This document shows, piece after piece, positions 34,935 to 45,379 of a DNA stretch of 64,000 nucleotides. The notes beneath the pieces are model-generated. The model made no database searches, was not told the origin of the DNA, and was given only the letters and a program-made list of their open reading frames with translations. Each line of letters begins with the position of its first letter. Positions within the stretch are counted from its first letter, which is position 1. The translations under genes were made by a program, and so were the position numbers. Location: assembly GCF_009914755.1 (NCBI RefSeq), contig NC_060932.1; one strand, written 5' to 3'. This stretch comes from the human T2T-CHM13v2.0 reference genome, Homo sapiens.

Positions 34935-35232
34935 ACCTCTAATGGATTTGGGCAAAGTAAACTGAAAACCTTCTGTAAAGGATTAACCCTTCTACATGCC
35001 ACTAAGAACGTATGTGATTTATGGGAGGAGGTCAAAATATCCACATTAATAAGAGTTTGGAAGAAGTTGTTCCAAACTTCATGGATGACTTTGAGGGACT
35101 TAAGACTTCAGTGGAGGAGGTAACTGCAGATGTACTAGCAAAATAGCAAAAGAACTAGAATCAGAAGGGAAGCCTGCAGATGTCATTGAACTGCTGCAGT
35201 CTCACGATAAAACTGGAATGGATGAGGAGTTG
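34935..35232 (+). mobile_element. Tigger1 transposase fragment
   Basis: GGGCAAAGTAAACTGAAAACCTTCTG...TGGGAGGAGGTCAAAATATC...CTTCAGTGGAGGAGGTAACTGCAGATG; ORF at 34929 resembles Tigger1 transposase. Confidence 0.88.
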
Positions 35233-35889
<657 letters not shown>

Positions 35890-36178
35890 TAGTATGTTTT
35901 GTTAATAGATAATAGAGACCTCCCTGTGAGTGCATGCATAAGAGTTTGTTATTTATTGCATCACAATAATTTAATATCATTAAATAATAAAACTAAAATA
36001 AATACTAGAAGCATCACCTCACAATCCTTGTGACCAAGGAGAGAGACTTGAAACCTAAGGATCTCTATCTTTCCTCATGGTTGGGTTCTCTTTAGAGATG
36101 GGTTTGCAGAAAGGACATCATAAATGTTCATTCTGCTCCCAGTGTAGTAAATTCCTAGCACAAAGAACAGATGGAAAG

Positions 36179-39985: not shown

Positions 39986-41853
39986 TTGGATAATTATTTC
40001 ATAATATTACGGCCTATTCTTTTTAAGGGCCTCTCAGCAATATACATATGATTTTTTGACAACACGAAACTACAGAGATTTATAAGGGTAGTTTTCTTTG
40101 TTTTGTTGTGATTTTAATAATGTGTTTATATTTTAGAAATTTTGCCCAGCTCAACTGGGGCACCAGGATTGCAGTAATTGATAGAGATATTTAATAATTA
40201 CACTTCATGATATTTTGTTAGCAAAATTATGCATCTCAAGCATATCACTTATGGACAATACATGGATTAGTAAATACTCCTTGAAATATTACTTTAATAT
40301 TTCATCTTAGTTCTACCACAGTTTAGTAGGTTATAGTTTCATTTAAGATAAGGATCTTTTTTTCCCCAATCGTCTATTCTAATTTAACATTATCTAACAC
40401 AAAAGAGTGTCATCTATTTAAATAGGAGCTAATAAGTGGTTAGATCAACTACTGTAAGGTGCACAAAGCTAAAGCTTTGTACTTACCATTGAAAAACGCT
40501 TTATGTGCTCTTTCTGGATATGCAATGATGGGGATCGAGATAATAAGATGTAATTAAGTGTCTGCCCTCAAGTTGATACAATTTATTTGGAGAAACTGAT
40601 ACCTAAACAGACAATTACAACATGGGACAAAAATAAGTGATTTATTTTAATGGAACTTTTGTTTATCATGAAGATACCAAAAAGTGCGGCAGAAATATTA
40701 AAGAGGGAGCTTCTTATAACCATAAATTATACAGCTCAGCATTTCCCATTTTTTCTTTTCTTCCTTGTGCCAATGCTTGGGAGGAAACCAGAGTATGAAC
40801 AAGAACTGTTTTACCTTCTAGTGGAGAAAGGACAATTTGCAGTGGAAAGAATGTGTGTGTCGTCCGTTTGATCTGTAAAATGTGAACTGCTTCTGTAGTC
40901 CTGAGGACTGAGGAAAAGAGATGTTGAGTAAAAGTTACTGATAATTCCAGCTATTCAATCTTATCTCACTTTTTCCTCTCTTTTATCTCTGCCCAAATAC
41001 CTCTACTTATGCACCTACTTTGAATTTGCAACAGTGAGGCTGGGGATAGGAGACGGCCAGTAGTGCTGAGTAGTGTCAAGTACAGTTAACAGTGAAATGC
41101 GGATTTTCACTCATCAAATCAGCAATCTTAAATTATAAAACTTAAAACCTGTCATGGGGCGTTAAGATGAATGCCCTTATGTACTGATGGTGGAAATATA
41201 AATAGATCATACTTTTTGAAAAGGTCGATTAAATTTACGTTAAAAGCCTTTACAAACATTTGTGCTTCATAACTTAGTAATTTTATTTCTAAGACACACT
41301 TAGGGAAATAATCTGAAGTATAGGAAAATATTTATGCAAAACATGATTAATAGTACTATATAGTGATAAAATTGAAGAAATTGGCCTTTAAATCAATTTT
41401 AAATAATTTTAATGGAATCACAAGGTTGTTTTATTGCTAAGATAAAAATTTTCAAATAACGTTTGTATATAAAATATTCCAATTACATAAAAAAGTGCAA
41501 AGACAAAAGGCTAGAAATATATTTCTCAATATTATGCTTATTTCTACCAAAGGATATTTGGTAAGTTATCTTTTATATTTTGTATATTGTCAATTTTTAA
41601 AATAAATGCACATTACCATTATAATTTTTAAAAAGCAAATAGGTTTCTGTTTTTCAGAGTTACTCATGTTCATCTGCAATATTTAATCTGAAACTGCCGC
41701 CTTTTACGTTGTTTTCTAATGTCCACAAATGTCCTGTGATCTACTTAAGCTAGTTTATTTTTATAAAAGCTGTATTGCTGAAAGTGGCCTGTCAACTAGA
41801 GGTATAATTTTAACGAAATTATTTTTCCTAAATTTCATTCAAGAGGACATTCT

Positions 41854-42591: not shown

Positions 42592-43642
42592 GAAGCCATC
42601 ATCAAAGTTCAAATCTCTGTAAAGAGAATGTTTTTCCTCAAGTTAGTAAAGTTTGGATTCATACATTTTCTAGAGAAGCAATTACAATCTTCATGCTATA
42701 TATAGGAAGAAAAATAGCTTTTAATTATGTTTGTCGACTCTTTTATTCAATAAACATTTAGTGACTATTGTGTGACACTGTTTTAGGTGCTAGGGATATA
42801 GAAATAAATCAGAAACAATCATTAGCCCTAGAGAACTAAACCTAATGGAACTGGATCTATCACTGGCAACCTTAAAATTACCTCCGTTTGTACTTAAGCT
42901 GAAGCTCAACTTCAAACTCTGACATGCTTGGCATCTTGTTGAAAATAAATAACGATCTACCTAGTTTGCCACTGGTAGCACTTTGGCACTATTAATATTA
43001 ACTATATACTGATGAAATTAACTTTCATAAAGGATTATACAAAAGTTTAGAGGGCAGAAAATATTAATGGATAAACAAGTACTGGTCAGCAACAAAAATA
43101 GCGTCAGCCTTCTGCTTTCACAAAGGCCAAGAAAACCAAGAAAAATTTCATTCTGAGTATATACAGAACTGCTGGGAAGAGATCATTCTATACATGTAGT
43201 ACATATGCAAATATCATATATGAGGAAGTATGAGTTATTACACAATCATTAATAACTAAGCATGCCAAATCAGTCATCAGGTTTCAAAGAATCATAGCCT
43301 TGTTTCAAGAGGTCCTGCCAGGTTTTAAGGAAACATGCATTTTCTGTACATTGGAAGACAAGCTATTCCACTTGAGCTGGTACTGCAGATGTGACCTCAA
43401 GAAATTTGGTTAATGAAAATGCTGCATCTCTGATCTGCATCTCCACTTTCTCCAGCAGGTCTACCATTTGGCCCTTGTTCCTGCTCAGAACTGGCCAGCC
43501 CAAACTCACTGGTTGCGTGGGAAAGATGCTAAAAGGTGTTTGAAGATGAGGAAGAAAAGGGAAGTTCTGGGAGCTGGTGAAGAAACCCACAACTCCTCAA
43601 GGTCAGCCATGGGGAAGAGCTAGGAGCTCAGAATCCAACCAG
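41854..43642 (-). pseudogene. Processed pseudogene of C4orf46 (disrupted CDS 43610-43270, retro-copied 3'UTR, poly(A))
   Basis: [12 protein letters not shown] / [79 protein letters not shown] matches recalled C4orf46; intronless, frameshifted, premature TAG at 43363-43365; AATAAA (- strand) at 41897-41902, A tail, TSD CAAGAGGACATT at 41840 and 43643. Confidence 0.92.
42561..42588. repeat. (AT)n microsatellite
   Basis: Directly visible. Confidence 0.95.
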
Positions 43643-44843
43643 CAAGAGGACATTTTAAAACAGGTTCTTTTTTCTTTCTCTTTTTATCACCTATGATTTT
43701 AAGAGTCCAGGTAATACAAGCAAAGGTTTACTCCATAGAGCATAGAATAAAAACAGTTAATCTAAATATTTAAGAGGTATTTTGCCATGCTATTGTTGGG
43801 CTTGGGTGAATATATATTTACATTTCTGTATATCTACATATGTATGAAATATTTAGATCTGTTTTCATATATTTGCCTATTTAAAGCTTAATTTTTTAAA
43901 AAAGTTTTATTTTTCTTCTAATTATTGTTAAGGGGAACATTTTAAGAACTAGAAAGTTTTAAAAATATATATTTTTACTTATCTTCTCAAACTTATATTT
44001 CTTATAGGGAAAACTCATATAAACTCTTCAAGAAACATCAGGAACTTAAAATTTTATTTTAAACATTAATTCCTTAACTGTGATTCATTTTGGAAACATG
44101 CTATTCAATTAACTATTAATTTGAAAATTCAAAAATAGGTTTTTCCATATGTCTTACTATCAATGAAATCAAAACGTCATTTGAATAAGCAACTTGTATG
44201 CTAGAGTAGCTTTATACCCTCTCTGAGGCAGTCTATTCTCATGCCGTTCCCTTTTAGTAAACACTGTCATGTTTCTCCCTCTTATATCAGTAGAAAGATT
44301 TTTTCTCACTGATGTCATTACCCGAAAGCTATTTTCAAGGAGGAAGAGGTCTTATCGTTTATTGGCTCAGATACCATATTTTAAGTAGAAAACATTGGAC
44401 AATATAAAACACTGCCCAACTCCTGTCTTCTAGTGAAAAATTATTTTGATTTGTGATGTATTTCAAATCTAAATTTTGTTATTATCTGTAATGGGCATTT
44501 GTCATCATTGTGGCTAGCACCTTTTGAAAATCATATGTTTGGCAAATTTTCCATGGTGAAACTCTCACTGCATCAAAATTGTAGCTAGAATTTATAGTTT
44601 TCTATACTTTCTTACAGCGAGGGAGTATTCATGTGACTTGGGAACTACTGAACAGACTTGGATTCTGAAACAAATAATATGAAATGGACACTGCAGCCTC
44701 CATTTCCTAGTGAGGATGGTGGAGTTTAGTGGAGAGACACAGAGCTTCTAAGGTAGCTGTGGCAGAGCATCAAGAAGTGACACCCTTATTGCAACATGTG
44801 GCCTGTTCCCCATGGTAGCACTTTAACTGACTGTCCTCCCCTC

Positions 44844-44931
44844 CAAGTTTGGAGGCTGTTCAGCCAGAAAGAGTGCCAAGTTGGTGATTATAACTTGGGC
44901 ATTGTTTCTGGCTGAACAGCCTCCAAACTTG
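44844..44931. repeat. Perfect 27-bp inverted repeat / 88-nt hairpin
   Basis: CAAGTTTGGAGGCTGTTCAGCCAGAAA (44844-44870) and its exact reverse complement (44905-44931). Confidence 0.97.
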
Positions 44932-45379
44932 ACTATCTGGCTCTCCCAGAGATTCTATGCATTTCCCAATAGCTTTTAGTTATTATTATTATTATTTGCT
45001 TAAACTGATTAGACTCGGATCTGCTGTTTGCACTCAAAAACTCTTCAACAACCAAATTTGGTCTAACTTGTGCTTTCCTTTTACAGTGGCTGTAGTAATG
45101 GGGGATGTGTTAAAATCATATTTTACAGGAAAGAATATTCAATATACTGAAACAAGACATCTTCCTTAACCCAATCGTAGTGTTAGATAACCACAGACTG
45201 AATTTAAGAAGTATGCTTTGAGTATAATTATATGTATCTTGCAGGATGAATTTGAGGATTATCAGTAACATGTATAAAATCTTTGCCACAATCTGTGACA
45301 TTTAATAGGCCTCAGTAAATGTTATGAATTATTTATTACATAATGTTAGATATATGTTCATGTTAGATGTTGATCAAAA

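What the first reader, a model, noticed from the sequence alone, without database searches (positions are those of the whole stretch)
44844..44931. 88-nt near-perfect hairpin between the convergent ZC2HC1A and IL7 3' ends
Seen: exact 27-bp inverted arms, extended by an imperfect inner stem (AGTGCCAAGTTG / TAACTTGGGCATT, one bulged G, G-U pairs) closing a ~7-nt loop, for ~39 bp of stem in apparently unique sequence. Inference: perfect arms imply a recent template-switch inversion or ongoing arm homogenisation. The size resembles a pri-miRNA hairpin and fits the known route by which de novo miRNAs arise. It could also extrude a cruciform, or form dsRNA in read-through transcripts from either gene.
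Basis: partly seen in the sequence, partly recalled or inferred. Interest (0 to 1): 0.75.

Follow-up and report, generated by a model that had tools for sequence, protein, structure and literature searches.

The report
Template-switch hairpin in an IL7 intron
This is a real 88-base DNA hairpin found once in the human genome, likely left by a short DNA-copying error inside an intron of a long IL7 transcript, and likely one of the thousands of such ordinary hairpins, with no sign so far that it is a microRNA gene.

Summary
The hairpin is real: exact 27-bp inverted arms (44844-44870, 44905-44931) around an imperfect inner stem and a 7-nt loop; folding z = -10.9. The arm occurs only here in the T2T genome at up to 3 mismatches and there is no target-site duplication, so it is not a young MITE. 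It is not intergenic: it lies in an intron of long minus-strand IL7 isoforms. Best reading (about 0.72): a short-range template switch copied one arm next to an older imperfect hairpin. A TTG microhomology and a leftover 7-mer weakly suggest the right arm is the insert (p about 0.04, post hoc). Perfect arms only date it to within roughly the last 55 My. PMC10710096 counts 6,054 such hairpins in human gene regions, 0.9% of them annotated miRNAs. No miRNA evidence here: no Rfam family, no RefSeq MIR row, not among 2,469 novel candidates; the stem is about 5 nt too long, and basal UG, CNNC and mGHG are missing. A cruciform is costly (about 40 kcal/mol). No primate alignment or small-RNA data were available. 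Verdict: an ordinary new member of a known class.

The parts
44844..44870 (+). Left outer arm, 27 bp; inferred template of the switch
   Evidence: Exact reverse complement of 44905-44931; only these two matches in the genome at up to 3 mismatches
44871..44883 (+). Left half of the imperfect inner stem; inferred older quasi-palindrome
   Evidence: Pairs with 44891-44904 with 4 differences in 14 columns; the inner 34 nt alone fold better than all but 15 of 5000 shuffles
44884..44890 (+). 7-nt apical loop (9 nt on the minus strand)
44891..44904 (+). Right half of the inner stem with one bulged G; ends in TTG (44902-44904)
   Evidence: 3-nt microhomology with the end of the right arm
44905..44931 (+). 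Right outer arm, 27 bp; more likely the inserted copy; ends in TTG (44929-44931)
   Evidence: junction microhomology of 3 nt under this reading and 0 nt under the mirror reading
44936..44942 (+). 7-mer in the right flank complementary to 44862-44868 of the left arm; possible remnant of the older hairpin
   Evidence: anchored alignment score reached by 172 of 4000 random segments and 97 of 2000 shuffles; weak and post hoc
40567..40907 (-). Alternative IL7 exon downstream of the hairpin; places the hairpin in an IL7 intron on the minus strand
   Evidence: Hub annotation table; pyrimidine tract plus AG acceptor at 40908 and AATAAA just before its 3' end

Best explanation
The element is a single-locus inverted repeat in an intron of long IL7 isoforms, likely made by one short-range template switch during DNA replication and likely a neutral by-product rather than a gene. 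Inferred steps: an older imperfect hairpin (the inner 34 nt, perhaps reaching further) let the nascent strand fold back or jump to the other strand at about 44904; the polymerase copied 27 nt of 44844-44870 in reverse; it returned to the original template, possibly by the 3-nt TTG match (event type 3-2-1-4 of the four-point model). Time since then has been too short for a substitution in the arms. In IL7 long-isoform pre-mRNA the minus strand would fold into a stem-loop that is probably spliced out and degraded, or cut by Microprocessor only weakly. Shown: sequence, fold, single locus, no target-site duplication, intronic position. Inferred: mechanism, direction, age, neutrality.
For: Exact 27-bp arms with sharp outer ends; chance expectation 2e-4 per genome. 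No other copy and no target-site duplication of 2-10 nt. All arm differences sit in the inner third: probability 0.03 for 3 of 3 in 13 of 40 columns, 0.01 counting the loop-closing pair. The inner part is a hairpin of its own, 15 of 5000 shuffles, as the classic model needs (PMC5453318 passages). Right-arm-new reading: 3-nt microhomology and flank similarity 172 of 4000; left-arm-new: 0 nt and 4000 of 4000. It meets the size criteria of PMC10710096 (fragment at least 15 nt, stem 30-55), a class of 6,054 in human gene regions with 57 annotated as miRNA; switch lengths in the part of its Dataset S1 that I read are mostly 20-61 nt.
Against: No outgroup: the pre-event state was not seen. The direction evidence is weak and was found after looking; in the fold test of the arm-deleted locus (15 of 1000) the right flank folds on itself, not on the left arm, so that test gives no support. 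The base before the new arm faces a G-G mismatch, a poor primer end unless it mutated later. The site was not found in the searched great-ape or human event lists, which fits an older event but gives no positive support. The clustering test is post hoc (about 0.06 if either end is allowed). My screen for old repeats found 0 hits in 21 of 21 tiles, including tiles that look like MIR/L2 by eye, so it was too blunt to exclude an old repeat underneath.
Confidence: 0.72

Rival explanations
1. One older inverted duplication of about 40 bp made the whole stem; the inner third has since decayed faster, or the outer arms were re-perfected later by quasi-palindrome correction.
For: The two halves align end to end over 41 columns with 37 identities. 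Conversion of near-perfect into perfect repeats is documented (PMC5453318 passages).
Against: Differences are confined to the inner third; it does not explain the TTG match or the flank 7-mer, though both are weak.
Confidence: 0.14
2. An unannotated young miRNA gene hosted in the IL7 long-isoform intron: Drosha cuts the minus-strand stem-loop and a 22-nt product is loaded on Argonaute.
For: Stable stem on the IL7 sense strand; 81 of 99 intragenic template-switch miRNAs lie in sense introns (PMC10710096); many real pri-miRNAs lack the motifs (PMC11100773 passage).
Against: No Rfam family at gathering score in the window; the best of 17 weak matches are structure-only, far below cut-off. No MIR row in the hub's RefSeq table. 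No coordinate match among 2,469 novel candidates (PMC4054668) or in PMC10710096 supplements. Arms 40-41 nt against 35 +/- 1, loop 7-9 against at least 10, no basal UG, CNNC or mGHG in register. Base rate 0.9%.
Confidence: 0.04
3. A remnant of a palindromic MITE or other DNA transposon whose terminal repeats form the arms.
For: 88 nt with inverted ends resembles MADE1-type elements (recalled). The old-repeat screen was insensitive, and the genome search warns that a blank does not prove rarity.
Against: A family young enough to keep 27 of 27 pairs should leave many copies within 3 mismatches; none was found. No target-site duplication. A sequence profile of the hairpin hits only itself in 264 kb.
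Confidence: 0.04
4. A stem kept perfect by selection as a structural RNA or DNA element (ADAR substrate, splicing or termination aid for IL7/ZC2HC1A, cruciform).
For: It lies in the zone where alternative IL7 3' ends are chosen (hub table); a 27-bp duplex is long enough for ADAR (own knowledge).
Against: No RefSeq functional element (hub table); 3.9 kb from the nearest annotated IL7 acceptor; cruciform penalty about 40 kcal/mol is met only near strong supercoiling in a rough model; perfect arms need no selection; no paper found linking a hairpin to these genes.
Confidence: 0.05
5. Chance, or an assembly error.
For: Reads or a second assembly could not be checked here.
Against: Chance expectation 2e-4 per genome; a 27-nt local inversion in unique sequence is an unlikely error for a T2T assembly (own knowledge).
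Confidence: 0.02

Closest known systems
Short-range template-switch mutations, type 3-2-1-4 / 1-4-3-2 (PMC5453318, PMC7954356, PMC9435742)
   Same: One short reverse-complement copy beside its source gives a perfect inverted repeat with sharp ends; this type was 31% of high-confidence human-chimp events.
   Different: Those events were called from pairwise alignments; here no ancestral sequence was available. 27 nt is longer than the 11.56-nt mean of human polymorphic events but well under their 97-180-nt maxima.
Template-switch-derived miRNA-sized hairpins and miRNAs, e.g. hsa-mir-4713, hsa-mir-5687 (PMC10710096)
   Same: Same size class (28-nt switch lengths in those two), sense-intronic position, single locus.
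   Different: No miRBase/RefSeq annotation or read evidence found; it matches the 99% unannotated pool rather than the 57 annotated loci.
MADE1-type palindromic MITEs and MITE-derived miRNAs such as the mir-548 family (recalled, no call)
   Same: About 80-90 nt, long inverted arms, short centre.
   Different: Single locus, no TA or 8-nt target-site duplication, no Rfam family match.

Membership tests
Template-switch mutation (four-point model) | Reverse-complement copy of a nearby fragment at full identity | tested here: met
   27 of 27, 34 nt apart
Template-switch mutation (four-point model) | Ancestral or sister sequence lacks the copy, and a switch alignment beats a forward alignment | not testable with these tools
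Template-switch mutation (four-point model) | Pre-existing quasi-palindrome or junction microhomology (common, not required) | tested here: inconclusive
   Inner hairpin 15 of 5000; 3-nt microhomology; flank similarity p about 0.04; fold test gives no support
miRNA-sized template-switch hairpin (PMC10710096) | Fragment at least 15 nt, stem 30-55, inside a gene region, not simple repeat | tested here: met
   27 nt; 37-39 pairs; inside the IL7 span; arm GC 0.48 (hub table)
Canonical miRNA gene | Stem about 35 +/- 1 bp with loop of at least 10 nt | tested here: not met
   Arms 40-41 nt, loop 7 (+) or 9 (-); a preference, not an absolute rule
Canonical miRNA gene | Basal UG, CNNC, mGHG or apical UGUG in register (optional enhancers) | tested here: not met
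   No UG at the stem base, CNNC at flank positions 12 (+) and 26 (-) instead of about 5-7, lower stem fully paired; a GUG opens the plus-strand loop only
Canonical miRNA gene | Transcribed | tested here: inconclusive
   Inside annotated minus-strand IL7 isoforms (hub table); no expression data seen
Canonical miRNA gene | Phased 22-nt mature and star reads with 2-nt overhangs, Drosha/Dicer dependence | not testable with these tools
   No read data; not found in one novel-miRNA catalogue by recalled coordinates
MITE / DNA transposon | Many dispersed copies | tested here: not met
   One locus at up to 3 mismatches; old diverged copies not excluded
MITE / DNA transposon | Target-site duplication | tested here: not met
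   None at 2-10 nt
MITE / DNA transposon | Match to a Dfam/Repbase family | not testable with these tools
   No repeat library on hand
Cruciform-extruding palindrome | Short or absent spacer, perfect centre | tested here: not met
   Imperfect 34-nt centre; penalty 40.1 against 10.5 kcal/mol for a 4-nt-loop control; spacer effect in PMC7999016 passages

The most novel reading that the evidence does not exclude
An unannotated primate-specific miRNA born by template switching in an IL7 intron, made only when the long IL7 isoform is transcribed, tying a new small RNA to IL7 3'-end choice in immune cells.
Probability: 0.04. Interest if true: 0.45.

Novelty: new member of a known kind. Interest (0 to 1): 0.13.

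Why it matters
As read here it matters little: it is one more example of a described mutational class with thousands of members. It is a clean test case, because the sequence alone predicts which 27 bases an outgroup primate should lack. If it did yield a miRNA, it would add one to about 110 described template-switch miRNA loci, in an immune gene with a clinically studied intronic variant (PMC9800275 passages).

Tried and rejected
Rfam: 17 weak matches around the site, the miRNA ones structure-only and 21 bits or more below their cut-offs; 0 at gathering score in the whole window. Old-repeat screen by nhmmer against about 260 kb: 0 hits in 21 of 21 tiles, failed its informal positive control, so inconclusive. 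Fold test of the arm-deleted locus: nominally 15 of 1000, rejected because the flank folds on itself. Background rate: only 200 kb of genome sample was available, too little for a rate; 24 exact repeats with arm of 13 or more and spacer up to 100 in 264 kb, 22 dropped as AT-rich (arm GC under 0.2, lengths not printed), leaving this hairpin and one 13-bp pair. Bacterial promoter/terminator scan: irrelevant to a human locus, nothing above shuffles. Catalogue look-ups used GRCh38 (about 78.725 Mb) and hg19 (about 79.638 Mb) positions that I derived from recalled gene coordinates; attempts to anchor them in a paper failed, so these blanks are soft. Two further novel-miRNA catalogues were not held. 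C4orf46P3 search gave one unrelated listing.

Full report
Observation. Arms 44844-44870 and 44905-44931 are exactly complementary over 27 bp, do not extend outward, and enclose 34 nt. The plus strand folds into 39 pairs with a 7-nt loop (z = -10.86, 0 of 200 shuffles), the minus strand into 37 pairs with a 9-nt loop (z = -8.44). It is the longest exact inverted repeat with a spacer up to 200 nt in the window, and independent bases would give about 2e-4 per genome. In 200 kb of other genome sample plus the window there were 24 exact repeats with arms of 13 or more and spacer up to 100; 22 were dropped as AT-rich, leaving this one and a 13-bp pair. The sample is too small for a genome-wide rate.

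Context. By the hub's table it is 5.6 kb past the ZC2HC1A end and 7.3 kb past the main IL7 end, but within the IL7 span: longer isoforms run through it on the minus strand to an exon at 40567-40907, whose acceptor and poly(A) hexamer I could see. So the minus strand is the one with annotated transcription, and the hairpin is sense-intronic. The table lists no MIR gene and no functional element in the window.

Not a young MITE. The 88-mer and the surrounding 1 kb match only this locus. The arm matches only its own two copies, and the inner part only itself, at up to 3 mismatches in 3.1 Gb. No target-site duplication of 2-10 nt flanks it. A profile of the hairpin hits nothing else in 264 kb. An old repeat underneath is not excluded: my tiling screen gave 0 hits in 21 of 21 tiles, including tiles that look like MIR/L2 by eye, and no repeat library was on hand.

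Anatomy and origin. The stem has two tiers: 0 differences in the outer 27 columns, 4 in the inner 14 (probability 0.01-0.03 under even decay, post hoc). The inner 34 nt form a hairpin by themselves (15 of 5000 shuffles). This is what a template switch beside an older quasi-palindrome would leave, the 3-2-1-4 type of PMC5453318 (passages). Which arm is new? The right arm is preceded by TTG and ends in TTG, a 3-nt match at the return point; the mirror reading has none. The right flank resembles the right arm more than most random segments (172 of 4000; 97 of 2000 shuffles), the left flank not at all (4000 of 4000). These are weak, post-hoc signals. Against them: the fold test of the arm-deleted locus is not support, since the flank pairs with itself, and the base before the new arm faces a G-G mismatch. 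The prediction is still sharp: an outgroup should lack 44905-44931.

Age. With an assumed 1e-9 substitutions per site per year, 27 pairs stay perfect with probability 0.72 at 6 My, 0.26 at 25 My, 0.10 at 43 My and 0.03 at 65 My (rates recalled, 0.6-2e-9 also tabulated). The event is probably within primates, and no ongoing homogenisation is needed. I found no matching coordinate in the great-ape event list (PMC7954356: passages, part 1 of 28 of S2 Data, 6 supplements searched, S1 Data too large), in PMC5453318 (7 of 8 files searched) or in PMC9435742 (passages; 11 of 22 files searched). These look-ups used GRCh38 and hg19 positions derived from recalled gene coordinates, which I could not anchor.

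How common. PMC10710096 (read: parts 1-4 of 6, part 1 of 3 of Dataset S1; 3 supplements searched; Dataset S2 too large) reports 53,666 putative switches in human gene regions since the primate ancestor, 6,054 of miRNA size, and 57 of these (0.9%) annotated in miRBase. This hairpin meets their size criteria. Their full list was not in the files I could read, so the site may already be catalogued there.

miRNA test. Rfam gives no family at gathering score and only weak structure-driven matches. No coordinate match among 2,469 novel human candidates (PMC4054668: 8 supplements searched, one cut when stored, main text not read). Against the Microprocessor preferences stated in PMC11100773 (passages), the arms are 40-41 nt instead of about 35, the loop 7-9 nt instead of 10 or more, there is no UG at the stem base, CNNC is out of register and the lower stem has no mismatch. 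The same passage notes that many real miRNAs lack the motifs, so this lowers but does not close the case. Read data, the deciding test, were not available.

Cruciform and dsRNA. Extruding all 88 bp costs about 40 kcal/mol in nearest-neighbour terms, against 10.5 for the same arms with a 4-nt loop; in a rough 5-kb-domain model with recalled constants, relief is 34 at superhelical density -0.04 and 55 at -0.06. Extrusion starts at the centre and is hindered by spacers (PMC7999016 passages). A hairpin in single-stranded lagging-strand DNA or in IL7 pre-mRNA is more plausible; nothing here shows a consequence.

Not in print. Searches for ZC2HC1A + IL7 + hairpin (1 unrelated listing), novel miRNA + chr8 + IL7 + ZC2HC1A (1 unrelated listing), IL7 + ZC2HC1A + chr8 (none) and C4orf46P3 (1 unrelated listing) found no description of this hairpin. 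Supplements that I could not see may list it.

Verdict. Observation confirmed; interpretation partly supported. Most likely a neutral template-switch hairpin (0.72), a new member of a known and numerous kind. Probability of a real miRNA about 0.04. Interest 0.13.

Noticed in passing
window 35214-35894: Two Alu-like repeats (family name recalled) in inverted, tail-to-tail orientation in the last intron of ZC2HC1A, 29 nt between the masked stretches, 249 identities, 41 mismatches, 6 gap positions. Closely spaced inverted pairs are uncommon and are typical ADAR substrates (own knowledge).
   Followed up: partly
window 44678-44709: A small hairpin with 8-bp arms, 135 nt upstream of the finding; 24 of 2000 shuffles fold as well; shares a 9-mer with the right arm, within chance.
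   Followed up: partly
window 44840-44855, 44854-44865, 44936-44950: Micro-palindromes (7-, 5- and 5-bp arms) overlap the left end, the arm itself and the right flank; they might mark earlier small switches or pause sites. Not tested against chance.
   Followed up: no
window 43250-43612 (-): The C4orf46P3 frame read from its first ATG has several stops, as expected for a processed pseudogene; its annotated 5' end (43848) is 1 kb downstream of the hairpin on the IL7 strand, so it may be transcribed with the IL7 intron (hub table).
   Followed up: partly
window 44700-44950: The hairpin sits in a short island of about 50% GC within 22-42% GC surroundings; an old unrecognised repeat is possible.
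   Followed up: partly
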